A stretch of 7,751 bases of DNA from a virus (Duplodnaviria; Heunggongvirae; Uroviricota; Caudoviricetes): the IMG/VR virus record IMGVR_UViG_2698536571_000012; one strand, written 5' to 3'. The position numbers and the translations under genes are program-made. The notes under the pieces were generated by a model. That model did no database searches, had not been told where the DNA came from, and saw nothing but the letters and a program-made list of their open reading frames with translations. Below, one piece after another: positions 1 through 7,751 of this stretch (the stretch's first letter is position 1; the number at the start of each line of letters is the position of its first letter).

Positions 1-22
1 GGGACGGAAGTCGCTGTCGTTC

Positions 23-268
23 TCAAAATCGGTGGAGCTGCATGACAAAGTCATCGGGCATTATCTGAACATAAAACACTATCAATAAGTTGGAGTCATT
101 ACCCAGCTTCCAAGCCTTATTACATTTAATCTGAGCATCGAGAATATCATTTCTGATAGCTGGAGCGTAACCGGATACATCGCTAATATTCATTAACTCT
201 TTGCACGATAGCATAGGCGCGTTATTGCGTTCAGTGGTCACGTTACCTGCATTCTTCTTACTGGTCAC
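23..268 (-). CDS. Hypothetical protein, 3' segment of a frame-disrupted gene downstream of the tape measure gene
   Basis: Track ORF with GTG start at 268 and TGA stop at 23-25. Hand translation shows the same frame stays open with no stop up to 571 (182 codons) but has no ATG/GTG/TTG before 268. An open frame this long in AT-rich DNA is unlikely by chance, so the coding region probably extends upstream (see finding on 23-701). Confidence 0.5.
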
Positions 269-548
269 ACCACCGTCATTTGTGGTAGCCGTTTTGCCAG
301 TGGCTGCTGAAATATCAGTTTGACCTACGATTGCTTTAAAGTTAATTTCCTGAAAAGTTAGCTGGATACGAAGACCGTTAGAGATAGTAACATCTTTAGA
401 GGCTTTAAAGTTGGTAATAATGGAATCGTCAATTTTAATTCCATCTTTACAGATAACAGAAATAATCTGCTTCTGGTCACGCCAGTTTTCCAGAGTGTCA
501 ATGAAGTTTTCTACTAATTGACCCTGACGAGTTAATAATAAGCTTCCT

Positions 549-740
<192 letters not shown>

Positions 741-857
741 TCATTTTTAACCAAGCCTTTGATATATATGTATTTTCTCTGTTAAGCGTGAGCTACGTGA
801 AAAATAATTTTTGGTGTGGGTATTAACTTTGCTTTATTCACGTAGAACACCGTTAAA

Positions 858-3038
858 TCATTCTTCCTCTGGATAGCTTGAACTTAAGAGCATATCCTGC
901 GTGAACTGGTCATTAGCTGATTGATTGAAAGTAAAGAAAGATGGTTCATCTGGTCGAACGACAACTTGACCACCAAGTGAAACTTTCACTGGCTCCTGAA
1001 TACGCTTACTCAAAGCACTAATTTCATCCCTCAGACCCTGAATATCTGCACTCGTTAATGCTGAATCTTGCTTAATGTTGTTTAACTCTGGATGATTGAA
1101 TCTTGCAATATTCATTGTGGCATTGTTAAACAATTCACCCATTGAACTAAAAATTCTACTCCATCCTTCGTTAATCATATTCGGTTTATTAGGGTCACCA
1201 GAATACACGGGATTAAAGTCACTACCCACACCTACCCCAGACGGATGCATATTAGCGTTTTTGACTACTTCCTGATTCATAAAATCCAGTGCTTTCTTCA
1301 ATGCATATAAACCAAGAGTGACGCCTCTGATTTGTGGAATCATTGAAGCTAATGCTAACGCTGTTTCATAACCGTCATCAGCATAACCAATTGCAAGAGC
1401 ACTACCTACACCACCAGCTACACCTTTCAGTTTTCCACCACCTTTACCAGTAGCTACCTGACCAGCCACCTGATTAGCTCTTGTACCTAACGTTGTGATT
1501 GCTCTTGTCAGGTTCATAACCCCTGTAGTAGCACTGAATAGCGTCTTTGCAGATAACGCTATAGCAAGACCTTTGACGAAGTTGATAAAACCATCACCGA
1601 CTTCATCAAGTAGTTTTCGTTTAGTGTCATCAAGGCTGTAATAGAACTTCTTAGTCTGTAAAATCCAGCCTTCAATGGTGTTATTGAATACGCGAATATC
1701 ATCTACACCAGCTTTAAGCATGTCGATAAGTCCACCGATAGCATCACCAGCGATAGAAGAACTCATCCCCATTTCACTAAGCAGGTTACTCAGGCTGGAT
1801 AAGAAGCCGTTTAGCTCATCCTGTGAACCTGAGAAGATTTTCACCATCGTATCATCCCAATTGTTTGCTAACTTACCTAAAGCTGTCTGAGTGCTCTTAG
1901 TGACTTCAGCCCAGCCACCCGCTTTATCAATCATCAAGCCCATCTGTTTAGCGACTTTAGGGAGAGTATCAGCGGAAAGTACCTTCCCGTTTTTCATGGC
2001 TGCATCAAGCTCTGTAGCAGTCATACCCAATGCTTCAGCGAATAGCTTAAATGCACCAGCCATACGGTCACCTAACTGCCCACGTAATTCCTCAGCCTGA
2101 ATCTTGCCCTTGCTCGCCATCTGCTCAAATGCTCTCAAAATGCCGTTTAGCTCATCGTTAGAAAGCCCCATTAAGCGACTCATAGCCGTTGCATTACCAA
2201 ATAGCTCCTGTGTCTGTTCCTGTGACATAGAACCCTGAGCACCTGCTGCAAACTTAGCGTAGCTTGATAGCCCTTCAGAGATATTAAGACCTGTCTTGTC
2301 TGCTAAATTTCGAATAAATACCTCAGCTTCAGATGCTTTATCACCAAGTACAAACTTAGCGGCTCTCTGTGCGGAATCTCGTTTAAGACCTGCATTCATA
2401 ATGGCCTTGTAAGCGTTAAGAGCACCCATCACAGAGTAAAATGCACCAGATAATTTAATCGCATTGCTTGCAAGATTATTAAATGCGTCGCTTGTATTGT
2501 TAATGCTGGCGGTCTTTGTCTGTGACCTGAGTTTATTCAACGTTTCACGAAGAGATTGATTTAATTTTGCAAGTTCAGCGTTAAACTTTTCACTTCCAAT
2601 ATTACCAGCCTTACCGCTTAAGCTGTAATACTGTGCTTTAAACATTTTAGCCATCAGCGGATTAATATCACCAAGCTTAGACATATTCACGCTATGCGCT
2701 GCTGTGATTGCTCTGTTTCCGCTAATTCGTGGTTGCCTTGATTGTTTTGGAGGATTAACAGTGTCATTAAATCTGGTGGCAAACTGAAATGCTTTTGTGC
2801 TTCTTGCTCTCTGCTCAATCTTGTCAAAGGTCTTATTAAACTTCCTTTCAAGCTGCCCTAAAGAACTTGTCAGATTGCTGTCAAGTTGCTTGGTATCGAC
2901 CTTAAACGCTCTATTCAAATTGCGTTCAATTCTTTGTGCTGACTGCAAAGCTGCCTTTTCAACTCTTTGCAAGCCCTTAATAACGTTTTCACTGAAACTA
3001 AGTTCAACGATAAAACTATCAACTGTGAATTTGCTCAT
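858..3038 (-). CDS. Phage tail tape measure protein (726 aa)
   Basis: Long, largely helical protein with the conserved tape-measure motif region (...GKIQAEELRGQLGDRMAGAFKLFAEALGMTATELDAAMKNGKVLSADTLPKVAKQMG...) and a Gly-rich hydrophobic segment (GKGGGKLKGVAGGVGSALAIGYADDGY). Start ATG 3038-3036 with GAGGTG Shine-Dalgarno 8 nt upstream. By the lambda gpH rule of thumb (~0.15 nm per residue) this would set a tail of roughly 100-110 nm. Confidence 0.85.
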   Translation of the reverse strand: MSKFTVDSFIVELSFSENVIKGLQRVEKAALQSAQRIERNLNRAFKVDTKQLDSNLTSSLGQLERKFNKTFDKIEQRARSTKAFQFATRFNDTVNPPKQSRQPRISGNRAITAAHSVNMSKLGDINPLMAKMFKAQYYSLSGKAGNIGSEKFNAELAKLNQSLRETLNKLRSQTKTASINNTSDAFNNLASNAIKLSGAFYSVMGALNAYKAIMNAGLKRDSAQRAAKFVLGDKASEAEVFIRNLADKTGLNISEGLSSYAKFAAGAQGSMSQEQTQELFGNATAMSRLMGLSNDELNGILRAFEQMASKGKIQAEELRGQLGDRMAGAFKLFAEALGMTATELDAAMKNGKVLSADTLPKVAKQMGLMIDKAGGWAEVTKSTQTALGKLANNWDDTMVKIFSGSQDELNGFLSSLSNLLSEMGMSSSIAGDAIGGLIDMLKAGVDDIRVFNNTIEGWILQTKKFYYSLDDTKRKLLDEVGDGFINFVKGLAIALSAKTLFSATTGVMNLTRAITTLGTRANQVAGQVATGKGGGKLKGVAGGVGSALAIGYADDGYETALALASMIPQIRGVTLGLYALKKALDFMNQEVVKNANMHPSGVGVGSDFNPVYSGDPNKPNMINEGWSRIFSSMGELFNNATMNIARFNHPELNNIKQDSALTSADIQGLRDEISALSKRIQEPVKVSLGGQVVVRPDEPSFFTFNQSANDQFTQDMLLSSSYPEEE

Positions 3039-3070
3039 TCATGTTTCACCTCTTTAAGTGTTCATATACG

Positions 3071-3111
3071 AAAAAGGGAAAGACTACCGATATCACTCGA
3101 TAATCTCTCCC
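3071..3111 (-). terminator. Rho-independent terminator-like hairpin immediately upstream of the tape measure gene
   Basis: On the minus-strand RNA: GGGAGAGA-U-UAUCGA-[GUGAUA]-UCGGUA-G-UCUUUCCC, about 14 bp of interrupted stem with G-U wobbles, followed directly by UUUUU (plus 3071-3075). Only ~18 nt separate the U-tract from the tape measure RBS. Confidence 0.5.
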
Positions 3112-3136
3112 GTAGATTTTCACCCAACCAATCTTG

Positions 3137-3343
3137 TTACCTAACCAGATAATAATTACCATCTTCACCAACAATCTGACAATCACTTGGTAATTTATCA
3201 AGACACCACTTAGCTATTTTCCTGATTCTATTCTTTTGCTTAGAGGAGGTGAATGATTTGATTCGTTTTGGTTTGTTGGGTTGTTCTTTCAATCGTTCAC
3301 TAATTGCTTTAATAAGCTCATAGCGTTCTGTTAAATCAATCAT
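3137..3343 (-). CDS. Hypothetical small basic protein (68 aa)
   Basis: Track ORF; ATG at 3343 preceded by AAGGTGGTGGTG; TAA stop 3139-3137. Lys/Arg-rich (KEQPNKPKRIKSFTSSKQKNRIRKIAK). Sits where a tail assembly chaperone would be expected, but is not acidic and shows no overlapping -1 frame partner. Confidence 0.65.
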   Translation of the reverse strand: MIDLTERYELIKAISERLKEQPNKPKRIKSFTSSKQKNRIRKIAKWCLDKLPSDCQIVGEDGNYYLVR

Positions 3344-3367
3344 TCACCACCACCTTTTAATTATTAA

Positions 3368-4078
3368 TTAAATAGCCTTTGCATATTTGCTAGAAATCTT
3401 CGTAAGCTGCTCAATATCAGCCTGCATAGCAATCTTCTTAGCATCTTCATATTCTTTCACAAGCTCTTTCATAGCCTGAAGCTCTCTTGAGAGATACAAC
3501 TTAACATTATCAAGTTGCTTGTTACGTGATGCCAAGATGTTCTGTCTAGCAATTTCAGCGAGTTCTTCATCGCTCTTATTAGTCATGTAAATAAACTGAC
3601 CAGCACCTCTTGATGCCTTAACCATCTTCACAATTCGATGTCCAGCAGGAAGACTACTAATCACGGCTGCGACGTTTTCTTGAAAAGTACCAAAACCATC
3701 ATTATCTTCGTATTGGTAATAGACAAATGGTTTCTGTGACAATTCATCCTGAATCTCAAATTCTGACGGCTCAATAGCTGATTGCATCAAGGTAACTTTG
3801 CTGTAAGCGTCATCTAATCTAAGGCGCTGTTCTTTCAGCAGTTGGTAATATTTCTTTTCAAGCTCAAGTAATGCTTCACTCTTGCAAATATCAGGCATCT
3901 CTTGAGGCTCAGGAGACACAAAGATGGTTGTTTTTGGTGACATCTTTAGCGATTGCTCAAGCTCAATACGCTTGTCATGCTCTTTACGCTGAATAGTGAT
4001 AGCTGGATGTTCAGTCTGTGGCGACCAGTCACTGAAGCTATCAATCACTTTGCCATTAATGTAAATATCATTTGTCAT
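3368..4078 (-). CDS. Hypothetical protein (236 aa) with predicted coiled-coil C-terminus
   Basis: Start reassigned to ATG 4078-4076 (MTNDIYINGK...) because GAGGA sits 6 nt upstream; the track's GTG start at 4126 has no RBS. TAA stop 3370-3368. Heptad-like C-terminal region (DEELAEIARQNILASRNKQLDNVKLYLSRELQAMKELVKEYEDAKKIAMQ). Function not recognisable by eye. Confidence 0.7.
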   Translation of the reverse strand: MTNDIYINGKVIDSFSDWSPQTEHPAITIQRKEHDKRIELEQSLKMSPKTTIFVSPEPQEMPDICKSEALLELEKKYYQLLKEQRLRLDDAYSKVTLMQSAIEPSEFEIQDELSQKPFVYYQYEDNDGFGTFQENVAAVISSLPAGHRIVKMVKASRGAGQFIYMTNKSDEELAEIARQNILASRNKQLDNVKLYLSRELQAMKELVKEYEDAKKIAMQADIEQLTKISSKYAKAI

Positions 4079-4253
4079 TGCTTTTCCTCTTCTAAGCGGA
4101 AGTGTTTCAGTTTTTAAAAAGCACACCTGACAGCCTATCTAAACTTAGAAGAGACTTAAAAGGCGGTTTGCCAAGTATGCTTTTTAAAAGCTGAATAGCC
4201 CTAGATAATTTCTTATAAAGGGCCATTCATAAGGTGAAGAAATTAAAACATCT

Positions 4254-4275
4254 AAAGGATTCAAAAAGGATTCAA
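4254..4275. repeat. Perfect tandem duplication, 2 x 11 bp (AAAGGATTCAA)
   Basis: Exact copies at 4254-4264 and 4265-4275 inside the ORF-free island. Confidence 0.9.
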
Positions 4276-4398
4276 ACGAATGAACAAGAGTACTTTTCGA
4301 GATGACCTCTCAGACTAACCTGAAAGGTCATGTAGCGAAAAGCATTGCACCTTTCAGAATAACTATCATTGATGTAGAATGATTAATAGTTTAATTCA

Positions 4399-4415
4399 GG
4401 AAGAGTTGCTCTTCC
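4399..4415. repeat. Perfect 17-bp palindrome GGAAGAG-TTG-CTCTTCC
   Basis: Arms 4399-4405 and 4409-4415 are exact reverse complements. No U-tract follows on either strand, so more likely a protein-binding dyad than a terminator. Confidence 0.85.
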
Positions 4416-4553
4416 CTATTACCATCATCTCATGCTTAAGGTTATTTGTCAACAGCTTTTTAACAGATTGGTAACATCAATTCTTATTTACCGTATTACC
4501 TACCCAGCAACCAACAAATAACCCTAAAGTCATCCAGAGAATAACGAGTGTCA

Positions 4554-4859
4554 TTACATCACCTCGCTGTAAGGGTTTAATTCATTCTGATAGGTCAAGA
4601 ATACATTCAGCTTCAATAATTGCTCAGGGCTTAAATCAAGTCGATTGCACTCTTCAATGATAAAGCGCTTATTGTATGGGTCTGTTACTTCCAGCTTGTG
4701 AACATAGTCACCAAGTTTAATTTCGTTGATTATATGCTTGTCAATATACGTTGACGCTTCAAAACAATGCATGAAATAGATATTAAAGCCCGACCTGTTC
4801 AGGTCAATCAACCAATTCATGGTTTCTTGGTCAACCATAATTTGCATTGGGTAATTCAT
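4554..4859 (-). CDS. Hypothetical protein (101 aa)
   Basis: Track ORF; ATG at 4859 with AGGAAGGA about 8 nt upstream; TAA stop 4556-4554. No recognisable motif. Confidence 0.7.
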   Translation of the reverse strand: MNYPMQIMVDQETMNWLIDLNRSGFNIYFMHCFEASTYIDKHIINEIKLGDYVHKLEVTDPYNKRFIIEECNRLDLSPEQLLKLNVFLTYQNELNPYSEVM

Positions 4860-5005
4860 TTTTAAAATCCTTCCTGTATCGCATTCTAAGACGTTTTAAC
4901 CCCTTTTTTAGACCACTTAAGGCGATTCCCTAAGTTACCCTGATTAGGGGCTTAAAAACGTTTCTGGTGCGTCTGGTAAAGCCTGAGAGATATGTTTTGC
5001 TGTTT

Positions 5006-5233
5006 TTAGCTCAAGTCTGAGACTAATAGCCCCATCTGGTGACCGTAGTCTTTTAACCAGCTTTGCTTAACCGGAGTCTTCAGAGAATAGTTAGGGGCTG
5101 ACAAGTGAAGATAGATATCATCTTTGCCGTGGATACTTCCCCATCCTTCGTATAACTCAAGCAAGTTTTCAAAATAACGAAATGCTTTATTAGTCTGAAG
5201 TTGTACTGTGATAGTTTTCATCAAGCACCCCAT
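5006..5233 (-). CDS. Hypothetical protein (75 aa; 71 aa if started at ATG 5221)
   Basis: Track ORF. The alternative ATG at 5221-5219 overlaps the upstream gene's TGA stop (TGATG, 1-nt overlap), consistent with translational coupling. Confidence 0.65.
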   Translation of the reverse strand: MGCLMKTITVQLQTNKAFRYFENLLELYEGWGSIHGKDDIYLHLSAPNYSLKTPVKQSWLKDYGHQMGLLVSDLS

Positions 5234-5442
5234 TCAGAAATAAGCTTAATTCCCTGCTCAAGCTGTTCAGGGTCGTTATAGTCGAGTATTACCAGTGGCT
5301 TTAATTCGTGTTTAAGCTGGTGGATTTGAGAGGGTTTTAATCGTTTGTTTGCTTTGAGGGTCACATCTTCAAATTCAGCATCTGCTAAATTCTGTCTGAT
5401 TAGGTGGCGGCCAAGTGTGGAATATTGGAACCTATAACACAT
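5221..5442 (-). CDS. Hypothetical protein (73 aa), middle gene of the coupled three-gene operon
   Basis: ATG 5442-5440 overlaps the TAA stop of the upstream gene (TAATG); GGAGG 4 nt upstream. TGA stop 5223-5221. Confidence 0.7.
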   Translation of the reverse strand: MCYRFQYSTLGRHLIRQNLADAEFEDVTLKANKRLKPSQIHQLKHELKPLVILDYNDPEQLEQGIKLISEWGA

Positions 5443-5732
5443 TAAACCTCCAATCTATCCGCCAGTTGATGGACCTTAGCGCTTAACACCTGAATCATTG
5501 AGCAACCTGCTACTGCGGACTGTGCTTTGAGTAGTTCCAGTTGGCCCGTTGTGATTCTGATGGCCTTAGAACCCTCTGCGACGCCCTTAACGTTATCGAA
5601 AGGGCTAAGGTTTACCGACTCTTTTAAAATCTCCCCAACAAGCGCTGTGTGCTTCATATCGGGATATTTGGCTTTGATTGCTGCCAGTCGTTCAAATGCC
5701 TCTGGCAAAAGGCGCGTAACTGTGTGAGTCAT
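5442..5732 (-). CDS. Putative ribbon-helix-helix (CopG/Arc-like) DNA-binding protein (96 aa)
   Basis: Start reassigned to ATG 5732-5730, which has AAGGAG 9 nt upstream; the track start at 5762 has no RBS. N-terminus fits an RHH pattern: beta-strand HTVTRL, helix LPEAFERLAAIKAKY, helix HTALVGEILKESV. The fold call is by eye only. Confidence 0.65.
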   Translation of the reverse strand: MTHTVTRLLPEAFERLAAIKAKYPDMKHTALVGEILKESVNLSPFDNVKGVAEGSKAIRITTGQLELLKAQSAVAGCSMIQVLSAKVHQLADRLEV

Positions 5733-5790
5733 TGTAAAAATCTCCTTAAATCTCTTACTCATACTACAATCTTAACATCTATTTAACATA

Positions 5791-5819
5791 TTGTCAGTAC
5801 CTCATTTACATGATACTAT
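5791..5819 (+). promoter_or_regulatory. Sigma70-like promoter for the small plus-strand gene
   Basis: TTGTCA (5791-5796), 17-bp spacer, TACTAT (5814-5819) with TG at 5811-5812 (extended -10). Lies ~50 nt upstream of the 5870 start codon. Confidence 0.4.
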
Positions 5820-5869
5820 GGTTGTAGGGGCTGATACAGGTGCTGTTTCCTTTCACAAAAGGAAAATTA

Positions 5870-6046
5870 ATGCATGATTTTTTCACAGCAATTATTGAAT
5901 CTCATCGTTTTAGCTCGTTGGGCTTTGCGGTATTTATTGTGCTATTGGTGTTTTGCGTTATGAATCGAGTCATTACAAAAAAGACAAAGCTTACAATTCG
6001 ACTTAAACTTCTTCGTGTTGAGATAGAGATTTCAGTAAATAAATAG
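5870..6046 (+). CDS. Small single-pass membrane protein (58 aa), candidate toxin or exclusion-type moron
   Basis: ATG 5870 with AGGA 6 nt upstream; the track's GTG start at 5840 has no RBS. Sequence MHDFFTAIIESHRFSSLGFAVFIVLLVFCVMNRVITKKTKLTIRLKLLRVEIEISVNK: one hydrophobic helix followed by a cationic tail. TAG stop 6044-6046. Confidence 0.6.
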   Translation: MHDFFTAIIESHRFSSLGFAVFIVLLVFCVMNRVITKKTKLTIRLKLLRVEIEISVNK

Positions 6047-6055
6047 CTGGTGGCC

Positions 6056-6352
6056 TTACCGGCACTTTCCCTTGATAATATTGGTGGCCCTCAGATTACC
6101 GGGGTCACCGTCTTTTAATCGTAGCTGGTGGACTGAATCCCATAAATCGTAATGATACAGCACCGCAAACTTCAAAGCGTCAATCTTTAAATCTGTCACA
6201 TCATCGACGAAATAATAATCCCTCCCTTCTTTCTTCGGTCGAATCCGGTAAACTTCCCCGTGAGTATCTTTCATCAAGTAACCTTCACGAGAAATGCTGT
6301 AACGTCTGAGTAAATAGTCACGGTATTTTCTCTCGCCATTATAAGTTTTCAT
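6056..6352 (-). CDS. Hypothetical basic protein (98 aa), translationally coupled to the replication initiator
   Basis: ATG 6352-6350 overlaps the initiator's TAA stop (TAATG); GGAGGA 8 nt upstream; TAA stop 6058-6056. Tyr/Arg/Lys-rich. Confidence 0.7.
   Translation of the reverse strand: MKTYNGERKYRDYLLRRYSISREGYLMKDTHGEVYRIRPKKEGRDYYFVDDVTDLKIDALKFAVLYHYDLWDSVHQLRLKDGDPGNLRATNIIKGKCR
6083..6116 (+). terminator. Rho-independent terminator-like hairpin for the small plus-strand gene
   Basis: Plus RNA stem GGUGGCCC (6083-6090) pairs with GGGUCACC (6102-6109), 8 bp with one G-U, 11-nt loop, then G-UCUUUU (6110-6116). It lies inside the 3' end of the convergent 98-aa gene. Confidence 0.45.
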
Positions 6353-7305
6353 TAAAACATTCCTCCACCATAAACACGTCTGACTTTAACTTTTTCTTTC
6401 TTTGGCTCGGTGTGAGTTTTCTTTTTTGGTGTAAAAGTAAAATCATCGTCACTATCATCAAAGTCATCGAGGTCACTAACCTTGTTCTTTAGCTTCGCAT
6501 TTCTGAATCTTTCTTTAATTTCTGCTTTACGCTGTTCACGTTTCAATTCCTCTTCAGGGTCTTCTTCATCATCAAGGTCAACATCCGGTAATTCATCATC
6601 AGTGGCGGGGCACTGTGTGTTTTTATGGTCACTACTAGCAATCACATCAGAGATTTTATCTTCCTTTTTAACGACCTCTTTAGCAGCTTCACTATCAAGG
6701 TCATCTAAGTCAGATGTTTTAACAGTCTCTTTAATAGCCTCTTCAATACCAAGAGAATCACATTCATGTGAATCACAGAGCGAAGCTCCCTTCTTAAAAT
6801 ATTCTTCTTCAAAGTCATCTTCTTTATTGTTATTAATAAGTTCTTTCTTGTTATTACTGTTATTATACGTGTCAAAGATTTTGACTGACTGAGTAAAAAA
6901 TTTTGACTCAGTGGGTAAAGAATTTTGACTCAGTGGGTCATCTTTCTTGACTGACTGAGTAACTTTAGACTCCAGCTTTGCCTTTCTGGCTTCCTTAGCT
7001 GTAAGCTCTGTTAAAACCTCCGGTACTTCATCAAGTGAATAAACTTTAATAACACACTGATTGCTTGCAACGTTAGTTTTCTTGATTAAACCATGTGCCT
7101 CAAGTTGTTTCATACATGCAATCACGGATGTTCTTGTGATTCCAGCATACTGACCAAGATGAGCATATGAAGGGGTATAATATTGCCCCTTATCGTGATA
7201 AAACTTTTGTTCATTCAACATGACAGTGTAAATAATACGGTCGGCAGCTTTAACGCCATTAGTCATCTGATAAATACGGTCATCAAACATGTGGAATTTT
7301 TCCAT
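6352..7305 (-). CDS. Phage replication initiator (lambda-O-like organiser) with internal origin, 317 aa
   Basis: Start reassigned to ATG 7305-7303 (MEKFHMFDD...) with AAGGAAAA RBS; the track's GTG start at 7362 adds an implausible 19-aa leader. N-terminal winged-helix-like segment (YAHLGQYAGITRTSVIACMKQLEAHGLIKK), a central linker encoded by the iterons, and a strongly acidic C-terminal tail (SDLDDLD, DVDLDDEEDPEEE, SDLDDFDDSDDDF). Confidence 0.75.
   Translation of the reverse strand: MEKFHMFDDRIYQMTNGVKAADRIIYTVMLNEQKFYHDKGQYYTPSYAHLGQYAGITRTSVIACMKQLEAHGLIKKTNVASNQCVIKVYSLDEVPEVLTELTAKEARKAKLESKVTQSVKKDDPLSQNSLPTESKFFTQSVKIFDTYNNSNNKKELINNNKEDDFEEEYFKKGASLCDSHECDSLGIEEAIKETVKTSDLDDLDSEAAKEVVKKEDKISDVIASSDHKNTQCPATDDELPDVDLDDEEDPEEELKREQRKAEIKERFRNAKLKNKVSDLDDFDDSDDDFTFTPKKKTHTEPKKEKVKVRRVYGGGMF
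6790..6870. other. AT-rich tract adjacent to the iterons (candidate DNA-unwinding element of the origin)
   Basis: About 80 bp of mostly A/T (ttcttaaaatattcttcttcaaagtcatcttctttattgttattaataagttctttcttgttattactgttattatacg) directly next to the iteron array, inside the initiator ORF. Confidence 0.55.
6879..6962. repeat. Iteron array: four 18-bp direct repeats at exact 22-bp phasing
   Basis: TTTTGACTGACTGAGTAA (6879-6896), TTTTGACTCAGTGGGTAA (6901-6918), TTTTGACTCAGTGGGTCA (6923-6940), TCTTGACTGACTGAGTAA (6945-6962), plus a degenerate copy TTTAGACTCCAG (6965-6976). Confidence 0.8.
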
Positions 7306-7458
7306 TATATTTTCCTTTTTAAAAATAAAACAAAGAAAGGGCTGACCACGTATAGTGACCAACCCCAGAGGGAGTGAATTAATTAGAAGATGGACTGATA
7401 AAGGAACTCAGAAGCCTGAGCGATTACGCGAGTATTAACAGCAAAAGGAAAAGCCTTG

Positions 7459-7488
7459 ATTGAATAAGAGGCCGTGAAAATCTGTCAA
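7459..7488 (-). promoter_or_regulatory. Candidate sigma70 promoter for the replication operon
   Basis: On the minus strand, consensus TTGACA (plus 7488-7483), 18-bp spacer, TTCAAT (plus 7464-7459). The -10 is weak (no A at position 2), so this is tentative. Confidence 0.3.
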
Positions 7489-7610
7489 TACCCTGACGCC
7501 TCCCAACGTTGTAACCTCTTAATGTTCTGAGTTCTTTTATCACCCCATATAAAAACCATAACAGATGTGATTATAAATTGCAACAATTATTTCACAGAAT
7601 AATTACTGAT

Positions 7611-7673
7611 TGGTCATTTATTGTTCACAGGGATACTTCTTAATATCTGAATCACCTATCTTGTAAATGACCA
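7611..7673. repeat. 10-bp perfect inverted repeat TGGTCATTTA / TAAATGACCA (candidate operator)
   Basis: Arms at 7611-7620 and 7664-7673, 43 bp apart, in the untranslated region upstream of the replication operon. Confidence 0.6.
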
Positions 7674-7751
7674 TATTTATGAGAATTTTAGCTCAACCTT
7701 TGAGCAATCCTGTATGACGTGCTCAGAGGCATTCTGAGAGCATCTGCAATG

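What the first reader, a model, noticed from the sequence alone, without database searches (positions are those of the whole stretch)
6790..6976. Iteron-type replication origin embedded inside the initiator gene
Four 18-bp direct repeats begin exactly 22 bp apart (6879, 6901, 6923, 6945), which is two helical turns. A degenerate fifth copy and an ~80-bp A/T-rich tract are adjacent. The whole unit lies within the initiator reading frame, at about codons 115-172, where it encodes a TQSVK-type peptide repeat and an N/K-rich linker. This matches the lambda ori-within-gene-O layout, in which the initiator's N-terminal domain binds iterons located in its own gene next to an unwinding element. The repeats come in two subtypes (core ACTGAGT in copies 1 and 4, its reverse complement ACTCAGT in copies 2 and 3), so the array has internal dyad character.
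Basis: partly seen in the sequence, partly recalled or inferred. Interest (0 to 1): 0.6.

Follow-up and report, generated by a model that had tools for sequence, protein, structure and literature searches.

The report
Replication origin inside its initiator gene
A gene on a small mobile island of Shigella/E. coli carries, in its own coding sequence, four evenly spaced protein-binding repeats next to an easily melted A/T-rich stretch, which is the classic layout of a replication origin embedded in its initiator gene; it is a new enterobacterial example of a known design, not a new design.

Summary
Four repeats lie exactly 22 bp apart (6879-6966) beside the least stable DNA duplex in the window (6787-6866). 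Both sit inside the minus-strand gene 6352-7305.

The repeats act at the DNA level. A 22-bp period rotates the reading frame, so the same 16-mer is translated as PLSQN in one copy and PTESK in the next. Copies 1 and 4 differ from 2 and 3 because the consensus would put a TGA stop in their frame.

Homologues settle the question. E. coli islands carry three allelic cassettes, each consisting of an N-terminal domain, iterons and an A/T tract, with sharp boundaries. Each cassette has its own 22/23-bp array at the same gene position. Relatives sharing 26-27% whole-protein identity also have arrays there.

Verdict: a RepA_N-like (PLE-RepA-like) initiator with a lambda-O/pSK41-style in-gene origin. 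It is a new member of a known kind. Origin firing itself is untested.

The surrounding island is more interesting. It looks like a PLE-like element with Felix-O1-like tail genes and contains no GATC sites.

The parts
6352..7305 (-). Initiator gene (317 aa; RefSeq homologues are annotated 'helix-turn-helix domain-containing protein')
   Evidence: ORF list. Start ATG 7305 matches the annotated homologues. PHROG 'replication initiation protein' / 'replication initiation O-like' hits, E 1.7e-10 to 9e-6.
6946..7305 (-). N-terminal winged-helix DNA-binding domain (residues 1-120), RepA_N/DnaD-NTD-like
6945..6962 (-). Iteron 4 (first in gene direction; frame 0; variant core ACTCAGTCAGTCAAGA)
6923..6940 (-). 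Iteron 3 (frame 1; consensus core ACCCACTGAGTCAAAA; arms TGAC-N7-GTCA)
6901..6918 (-). Iteron 2 (frame 2; consensus core ACCCACTGAGTCAAAA)
6879..6896 (-). Iteron 1 (frame 0; variant core ACTCAGTCAGTCAAAA)
6963..6976 (-). Degenerate fifth copy (GCTGGAGTCTAAAG; matches only with a 1-nt indel)
   Evidence: Read from the sequence. Weak.
6871..6885 (.). Palindrome GTCAAA-GAT-TTTGAC formed by the end of iteron 1 and an extra inverted half-site
   Evidence: In L018 it reads GTCAAG-AAA-CTTGAC, so the pairing is kept by a change on both arms.
6787..6866 (.). A/T-rich, purine-skewed tract; candidate DNA-unwinding element
   Evidence: Least stable duplex of the window at 40, 60 and 80 bp. GC 0.22-0.28. 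AT 0.78-0.82 at gene nt 441-500.
6838..6852 (-). Conserved 15-mer AACAAGAAAGAACTT inside the A/T tract
   Evidence: Identical in L018 and L014 (frame 0, NKKEL) and in L016, where it is read in another frame (EQERTF). Shuffles of L016 never shared more than a 14-mer with the window gene.
6816..7575 (-). Exchangeable specificity cassette (part of the leader, N-terminal domain, iterons, A/T tract)
   Evidence: Window versus the type B allele: identity is at least 95% outside this stretch and about 45% inside it, from gene nt -270 to +490. Types B and C diverge exactly from the ATG to about nt +560.
6352..6815 (-). Linker remainder plus acidic C-terminal domain, shared between cassette types
   Evidence: Blastn hits of other alleles cover only this part. 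Residues 125-244 are predicted disordered and 250-275 helical.

Best explanation
The stretch 6787-6976 is the vegetative replication origin of a small integrative island, and it lies inside the island's own initiator gene.

Proposed mechanism (inferred):
- Dimers of the initiator's N-terminal RepA_N-like winged-helix domain bind the four semi-palindromic iterons (T[T/G]AC-N7-GTCA). The iterons are spaced two helical turns apart.
- The resulting nucleoprotein complex stresses and opens the adjacent 80-bp A/T-rich tract, which contains a conserved purine-rich 15-mer.
- The conserved acidic C-terminal domain recruits a helicase or primase, from the host or from a helper phage, to start theta replication of the excised circle.
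- The peptide encoded by the origin (residues ~114-173) is just a disordered linker.

Because the protein's specificity determinant and its DNA target sit side by side, they are exchanged between islands as one cassette.

Shown here: the repeat geometry, its DNA-level nature, its recurrence and co-variation in homologues, the fold of the N-terminal domain, and the low duplex stability.

Inferred: binding, unwinding, replisome recruitment and origin firing.
For: (1) The repeats act at the DNA level. The 22-bp period rotates the frame (phases 0, 1, 2, 0). The identical 16-mer ACCCACTGAGTCAAAA encodes PLSQN in one copy and PTESK in the next. Placing that consensus in copies 1 or 4 creates an in-frame TGA, and those copies carry CAG TCA instead. 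L018 shows the same pattern. In type C, one copy loses its TGA and one spacing shrinks to 22 bp.

(2) The layout recurs. Three E. coli alleles whose N-terminal domains are 36-44% identical each carry their own array at gene nt ~345-437:
- type A: 22 bp x4;
- type B: 23 bp x~3.8, AACCA-N5-TGGTT;
- type C: 23 bp x3.5, TGACA-N3-TGTCA.
Each array is followed by an A/T-rich tract. Distant relatives also have arrays just after the domain: L014 (23/24 bp x3.4), L016 (22 bp x3.9) and L022 (21 bp x1.9).

(3) Cassette exchange has sharp boundaries that enclose the domain, the iterons and the A/T tract.

(4) The iteron core and the semi-palindrome pattern occur nowhere else in the window.

(5) The A/T tract is the least stable duplex in the window. 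Its 15-mer is conserved across reading frames.

(7) Precedent:
- pSK41 Rep is 319 aa. Its NTD (residues 1-120) binds four Rep boxes located centrally in rep, and the origin-encoded central domain is a dispensable linker (PMC5703833).
- Lambda iterons lie at O gene nt 349-433, followed by an A/T tract.

(8) Residues 125-244 are predicted disordered.
Against: There is no experimental evidence of binding or replication.

Pfam RepA_N and Phage_rep_O do not match by sequence, and hhalign against lambda O gives probability 0.1.

In the closest characterised relative (PLE) the origin is intergenic, not in the gene.

Within type A the cassette is nearly invariant. Against L018 the array as a whole is no more conserved than the domain-coding part (variable columns 0.239 versus 0.206). 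There is therefore no independent signal of synonymous-site constraint.

Two distant relatives (L019, L020) have no in-gene array.

No DnaA box or IHF site lies near the array, and no partner helicase loader was identified.

In this window the island is decayed: an IS1 end is present and the baseplate gene is broken. The origin may no longer be used here.

The AF2 model rests on only 9 sequences.
Confidence: 0.75

Rival explanations
1. The array is only an operator or copy-control (handcuffing, incompatibility) site for the same protein, and the true origin lies elsewhere in the island, for instance in a non-coding region as in Vibrio PLEs.
For: The PLE origin is intergenic (PMC7145576). A 380-nt non-coding stretch with a 38-nt imperfect inverted repeat lies just upstream of the gene (7306-7690). 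Co-variation with the N-terminal domain proves only that the protein binds here.
Against: No iteron copy or semi-palindrome exists anywhere else in the 7.7-kb window, including the upstream region. The array is always flanked by the least stable A/T tract, which carries a 15-mer conserved at the DNA level. The exchanged cassette contains the A/T tract. The pSK41 and lambda precedents use exactly this layout as the origin.
Confidence: 0.12
2. The periodicity is a by-product of a low-complexity or repeated peptide linker and has no DNA function.
For: TQSVK occurs twice. The region encodes an N/K-rich segment that is predicted to be disordered.
Against: Periods of 22 and 23 bp are not multiples of 3. 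The same DNA is read in different frames and gives unrelated peptides in every type. A 15-mer is conserved although it is read in two frames. Loss of one 23-bp unit frameshifts the gene in L013. This shows that the repeats are carried at a cost to the coding sequence.
Confidence: 0.02
3. The repeats are a site for another island function, such as packaging (pac), recombination by the small serine recombinase, or a decoy or target for a helper-phage protein.
For: The island carries two serine recombinases and phage-derived genes. In PLEs the iterons are also the target of a phage origin-directed nuclease (PMC8263062).
Against: The repeats co-vary with the initiator's own DNA-binding domain, not with the recombinases. 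No phage gene with a homologous N-terminal domain was found apart from one Parageobacillus phage.
Confidence: 0.05

Closest known systems
RepA_N theta replicons of Gram-positive plasmids (pSK41, pTZ2162, pAD1 type)
   Different: There is no Pfam PF06970 match by sequence. The host is enterobacterial and the element is a chromosomal integrative island, not a plasmid. The C-terminal domain is acidic and mostly predicted to be disordered, and it is unrelated. No antisense-RNA control was identified.
RepA and ori of Vibrio cholerae PLE phage satellites
   Different: PLE iterons lie in a non-coding region (PMC7145576), whereas here they are inside the gene. There is no detectable similarity outside the N-terminal domain. 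The hosts and presumed helper phages differ.
Bacteriophage lambda O gene / ori-lambda (and lambdoid relatives)
   Same: Four ~18-bp iterons are spaced 20-24 bp apart at gene nt 349-433, compared with 340-427 here. A purine-rich A/T tract follows them immediately, and all of it lies in the linker between an N-terminal DNA-binding domain and a C-terminal recruiting domain. Weak PHROG 'replication initiation O-like' hits exist.
   Different: No demonstrable homology to O (hhalign probability 0.1; no Pfam Phage_rep_O hit). No P-like helicase loader is encoded downstream; there is only an unassigned 98-aa ORF. The dyad symmetry of the iterons is weaker in the window's type.

Membership tests
RepA_N-type replicon | N-terminal DNA-binding domain with the RepA_N/DnaD-NTD winged-helix fold | tested here: met
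RepA_N-type replicon | Sequence match to Pfam RepA_N (PF06970) | tested here: not met
   No hit even at E<=1 for 9 family members. PLE RepA likewise showed no evident primary-sequence similarity to the staphylococcal RepA_N initiators by BLASTP and was assigned to the family on structure.
RepA_N-type replicon | Iterons located centrally within the rep coding sequence, directly after the N-terminal domain | tested here: met
   Gene nt 340-427 of 954. The same position holds in six further alleles or relatives.
RepA_N-type replicon | [quoted passage not shown] | tested here: met
   T[T/G]AC-N7-GT[C/A]A occurs only at the four iterons. It is clearer in type B (AACCA-N5-TGGTT) and type C (TGACA-N3-TGTCA). 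The arms in the window's type are short (4-5 bp).
RepA_N-type replicon | Origin-encoded central residues are a dispensable linker | tested here: inconclusive
   Residues 125-244 are predicted disordered (pLDDT <50), and their sequence is unconstrained across types. Dispensability needs an in-frame deletion experiment.
RepA_N-type replicon | The initiator binds the iterons and drives replication from them | not testable with these tools
   Needs EMSA or footprinting and a trans-complementation replication assay.
Lambda O / ori-lambda | Homology to the O N-terminal domain (Pfam Phage_rep_O) | tested here: not met
   hhalign of the family profile versus lambda O gives probability 0.1. No Pfam hit. 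Only weak PHROG 'replication initiation O-like' hits, E 3.7e-7 to 9e-3.
Lambda O / ori-lambda | Four iterons followed by an A/T-rich tract inside the initiator gene | tested here: met
   (lambda nt 349-433 versus nt 340-427 here). A/T tract confirmed.
Lambda O / ori-lambda | A P-type helicase loader encoded immediately downstream | tested here: not met
   The downstream 98-aa ORF (6056-6352) has no Pfam, PHROG or NCBIfam match.
PLE-type phage satellite (context of the replicon) | Large serine recombinase plus a RepA_N-like initiator on a ~12-18 kb island lacking capsid and terminase genes | tested here: met
   L001 and L018 each have a large serine recombinase, the initiator, a tape measure and a Dit-like baseplate gene, with no capsid or terminase gene annotated. 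L001 also has an annotated adenine methyltransferase and a small recombinase. The window itself lacks the recombinase because it is cut by IS1.
PLE-type phage satellite (context of the replicon) | Excision, replication and transduction triggered by a helper phage | not testable with these tools
   No hits in viral contig collections.

The most novel reading that the evidence does not exclude
The gene is the replicon of an undescribed family of PLE-like phage satellites in Escherichia, Shigella and Salmonella that parasitise lytic Felix-O1-like myoviruses.

Evidence consistent with this reading:
- The islands combine a large serine recombinase with a PLE-RepA-like initiator.
- They carry tail genes copied from Felixounavirus (a tape measure and a Dit-like hub).
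- Like that phage, they contain no GATC sites at all.

Under this reading, the swapping of in-gene origin cassettes (types A, B and C) would be the footprint of an arms race over origin recognition, as seen between PLEs and ICP1.
Probability: 0.3. Interest if true: 0.8.

Novelty: new member of a known kind. Interest (0 to 1): 0.5.

Why it matters
The finding assigns a function to a gene that RefSeq labels only 'helix-turn-helix domain-containing protein'. That gene is present in 151 of 5426 complete E. coli genomes.

It extends the RepA_N-style 'origin inside rep' design to enterobacterial chromosomal islands. The only Gram-negative RepA_N initiator I found characterised is that of the Vibrio PLE.

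It also gives a clean natural example of how a DNA signal and a reading frame share sequence: iteron variants and spacings are dictated by stop-codon avoidance.

It supplies three ready-made, presumably orthogonal initiator/origin cassettes for testing specificity.

Finally, if the island is a satellite of Felix-O1-like phages, which are used in Salmonella typing and biocontrol, the origin is the handle for detecting its activation.

Tried and rejected
- Phage databases: tblastn and blastn of the gene against 50,697 phage records found nothing. N-terminal domains of types B and C hit only one Parageobacillus phage. No helper-encoded Odn-like homologue was found.
- Species-representative genomes: the protein-pattern scan and the iteron-pair DNA pattern found nothing.
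- IMG/VR: both the protein and the DNA pattern found nothing.
- Rfam found nothing in the window.
- No DnaA box or IHF site lies near the origin.
- Pfam, NCBIfam and PHROG gave nothing for the seven small ORFs.
- Synonymous-constraint test within type A: uninformative, because the E. coli alleles are almost identical across the cassette.
Stop-codon avoidance explains the subtypes.
- Literature searches for a described Felix-O1 or Felixounavirus satellite, or an E. coli RepA_N satellite, found none. The library is incomplete, so this is not proof of absence.

Full report
**1. What is in the sequence**

The window carries four direct repeats starting at 6879, 6901, 6923 and 6945, exactly 22 bp apart. 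Tandem Repeats Finder scores the array 95, the highest in the window. I scored the fraction of matching bases between four consecutive units for periods of 15-30 bp. The array reaches 0.773. In 200 dinucleotide-preserving shuffles the mean was 0.519, the sd 0.024 and the maximum 0.604.

Immediately beside the array, 6787-6866 is the least stable duplex of the entire 7751-bp window at 40, 60 and 80 bp (nearest-neighbour energies). GC there is 0.22-0.28. The other low-stability regions sit at or between ORF boundaries, but this one lies inside a long ORF.

Everything lies in the minus-strand gene 6352-7305 (317 aa). The listed ORF starts further upstream at a TTG, but the annotated homologues begin at MEKFH, which is ATG 7305. 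The iterons cover codons 114-143 and the A/T tract runs to about codon 173.

**2. The repeats are a DNA feature, not a peptide feature**

Twenty-two is not a multiple of three, so successive copies are read in phases 0, 1, 2 and 0. The identical 16-mer ACCCACTGAGTCAAAA is translated as PLSQN in copy 3 and PTESK in copy 2. TQSVK appears only in copies 4 and 1, which are 66 bp apart.

The ACTGAGT and ACTCAGT heptamers sit at different offsets, so the array has no in-register dyad.

The subtypes have a simpler cause. I substituted the copy-2/3 core into the positions of copies 1 and 4. This produces ACC CAC TGA, an in-frame stop, and the real copies there read ACT CAG TCA. The same rule holds in the 73%-identical homologue L018.

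In type C arrays the core AGTGAC would give TGA in one phase. There, one copy reads TAAGAC and one spacing is 22 instead of 23 bp, which avoids that phase. The type B unit has no stop triplet in any frame, and its array is the most perfect (95% matches).

In L013, loss of exactly one 23-bp unit frameshifts the gene.

Each iteron is a short semi-palindrome, T[T/G]AC-N7-GT[C/A]A. That pattern and the iteron core occur nowhere else in the window.

The end of iteron 1 forms a 6-bp-arm palindrome with an extra half-site (6871-6885, GTCAAA-GAT-TTTGAC). In L018 it reads GTCAAG-AAA-CTTGAC, so the pairing is kept by changes on both arms.

**3. What the protein is**

Pfam gives only sub-threshold winged-helix and DnaD_N hits. 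PHROGs gives 'replication initiation protein' / 'replication initiation O-like' families at E 1.7e-10 to 9e-6 over residues 5-169.

The family is small. Only 25 representatives at 50% clustering reach E<=1e-3 among 1.84 billion proteins. The closest proteins are from Shigella sonnei (99%) and E. coli.

An AlphaFold model built on 9 sequences gives three regions:
- a confident N-terminal domain, residues 1-120 (block-mean pLDDT 81-93 over residues 11-110);
- disorder over residues 125-244;
- a helix at residues 250-275.

A profile comparison with lambda O shows no homology (probability 0.1).

**4. Homologues**

The gene occurs in 151 of 5426 complete E. coli genomes, always on the chromosome. 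Most hits match only the 3' half of the gene. Fetching 18 loci showed three allelic types. Their N-terminal domains are 36-44% identical and their C-terminal halves are shared.

Each type has its own tandem array at the same gene position:

| Type | Loci | Position (gene nt) | Array |
|---|---|---|---|
| A | window, L001, L025-L029 | 340-427 | 22 bp x4 |
| B | L002-L007, L010 | ~352-437 | 23 bp x~3.8, ACCCAACCAGAATTTGGTTACCT |
| C | L008, L009, L011, L012 | 347-426 | 23 bp x3.5, GACAAAATGTCATCAGTACCAGT |

Each array is followed by an A/T-rich tract.

Sliding identity shows sharp cassette boundaries. Window versus type B is at least 95% identical outside gene nt -270 to +490 and about 45% identical inside. 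Types B and C diverge exactly from the ATG to about nt +560. The domain, the iterons and the A/T tract therefore move as one module.

Relatives at 24-27% whole-protein identity also carry arrays just after the domain:
- L014: 23/24 bp x3.4 at nt 418-498;
- L016: 22 bp x3.9 at nt 407-492;
- L022: 21 bp x1.9.

L019 and L020 have no in-gene array.

A 15-mer, AACAAGAAAGAACTT, lies 20-28 nt after the last iteron. It is identical in the window, L018 and L014 (read as NKKEL) and in L016, where it is read in another frame (EQERTF). Shuffled controls never shared more than 14 nt.

One weakness remains. Type A alleles in E. coli are nearly identical across the cassette. Against L018 the array as a whole is no more conserved than the domain-coding part (0.239 versus 0.206 variable columns). 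In that comparison, by my reading of the alignment, the core of copy 2 is unchanged and most of the other changes fall in the spacers and in outer copy 4. I therefore have no independent synonymous-site signal.

**5. Comparison with known systems**

pSK41 Rep is 319 aa (PMC5703833). Its N-terminal 120 residues (RepA_N) bind four Rep boxes located centrally within rep. The central domain encoded by the origin is a dispensable linker. The C-terminal domain is essential and binds DnaG. In pPR9, a ~500-bp region comprising the RepA_N domain and origin has been replaced as a module. These points match what is seen here.

[quoted passage not shown] This is attributed to pressure from a phage origin-directed nuclease (PMC8263062). 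The PLE origin, however, is intergenic.

In lambda the four iterons are annotated at O gene nt 349-433 and are followed by a purine-rich A/T tract. That is almost the same coordinates as here, but the proteins are not detectably related and no P-like loader follows this gene.

I therefore file the element as working like both, and as a structural member of the RepA_N/PLE-RepA group. The Pfam sequence criterion is not met.

**6. Mechanism and confidence**

The most likely mechanism has four steps:
- N-terminal domain dimers occupy the four phased iterons.
- The complex opens the adjacent A/T tract.
- The conserved C-terminal domain recruits a host or helper helicase or primase.
- The excised island replicates as a circle.

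The geometry, the DNA-level nature of the repeats, their recurrence and co-variation, the fold and the low stability are shown. Binding, opening, recruitment and firing are inferred. Confidence is 0.75.

The main rival is that the array is only a control site and the origin lies elsewhere. I give this 0.12. Against it, no other iteron copy exists in the window and the A/T tract travels with the cassette.

The peptide-repeat explanation is effectively excluded.

**7. Context and things noticed**

In relatives, the window is part of a roughly 11-14 kb island. It is inserted between tonB and yciI (L001), near cutC/argS (L018) or next to dinB (the L012 remnant). In L001 its gene order is:
- large serine recombinase;
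- Dit-like baseplate protein;
- tape measure;
- small ORFs;
- initiator;
- adenine methyltransferase;
- small recombinase.

The baseplate protein is 75% identical to Felixounavirus garuso gp119. The tape measure shares 88%-identical DNA segments with that phage.

The window contains no GATC at all, against about 27 expected. The GATC-free zone coincides with the island in L001 (13482-25084) and L018 (5237-16954). A 14.8-kb stretch of garuso also has none, against 52 expected.

In the window itself the island is decayed. Positions 1 to ~113 are an IS1 end and the baseplate gene is broken.

I found no paper describing this island and no virome contig carrying it.

**8. Verdict**

The finding is correct in substance. 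It is a new enterobacterial member of a known design: an iteron origin embedded in a RepA_N-like or lambda-O-like initiator gene. The origin itself is of moderate interest. The island around it may deserve more.

Noticed in passing
window 1-7751; L001 13482-25084; L018 5237-16954; L030 (phage garuso) 1-14771: GATC is completely absent. The window has 0 sites against ~27 expected. The GATC-free zone coincides with the island in L001 and L018, while the flanking chromosome has normal density. A 14.8-kb Felixounavirus segment also has 0 against 52 expected. The island nevertheless encodes an adenine methyltransferase just upstream of the initiator.
   Followed up: partly
window 858-3038 and 104-701; L001 10744-24535; L018 5635-16954: The island looks like a PLE-like element. 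It has a large serine recombinase, a PLE-RepA-like initiator, and a tape measure and Dit-like baseplate gene derived from Felix-O1-like phages (75% aa identity for the baseplate protein; 88% nt segments in the tape measure). It has no capsid or terminase genes and occupies at least three chromosomal sites. I found no description of it in the searchable literature.
   Followed up: partly
window 1-113 and 104-701: The window starts with an IS1 end. The adjacent baseplate gene is broken into fragments (aa 1-49 and aa 75-224 of the L001 protein) and truncated. The island copy in this (probably Shigella sonnei) genome is therefore decaying, although the initiator ORF and iterons are intact.
   Followed up: partly
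window 7338-7366 (minus strand) and 7390-7427 / 7511-7548: A strong intrinsic-terminator-like hairpin followed by a T-run lies just upstream of the initiator start codon. It sits inside a ~380-nt non-coding leader that also holds a 38-nt imperfect inverted repeat. This could be a regulatory leader or small RNA. Rfam has no match. The distal part of this leader (beyond about nt -280) is ≥95% identical across all three cassette types, and types B and C share it right up to the ATG.
   Followed up: no
window 6056-6352 (minus strand): A 98-aa ORF overlaps the initiator stop codon (ATGA) and is present downstream of the initiator in all E. coli islands examined. It has no Pfam, PHROG or NCBIfam match. 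It occupies the position that the helicase loader P has in lambda.
   Followed up: no
window 6352-6600 (C-terminal end of the initiator); L016 gene nt 728-749: The conserved C-terminal end carries an acidic-aromatic motif (DLDDFDDSDDDF) reminiscent of the SSB C-terminal tail. Separately, a stretch of at least 22 nt (TTGATGATGAAGAAGACCCTGA, encoding DDEEDP) is identical at the same gene position in L016, whose protein is only 27% identical.
   Followed up: no
L013 gene nt ~360-420; L012: L013 has lost exactly one 23-bp iteron unit, which frameshifts the initiator. Its last iteron has the central A-tract flipped (TGACATTTTGTCA) with the arms kept. L012 is also frameshifted and sits in a remnant next to dinB.
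   Followed up: partly
L014 8933-9184: In a distant relative, the gene immediately downstream of the initiator encodes a short T5orf172-domain protein. This is the nuclease domain family used by the ICP1 origin-directed nuclease that targets PLE origins.
   Followed up: no
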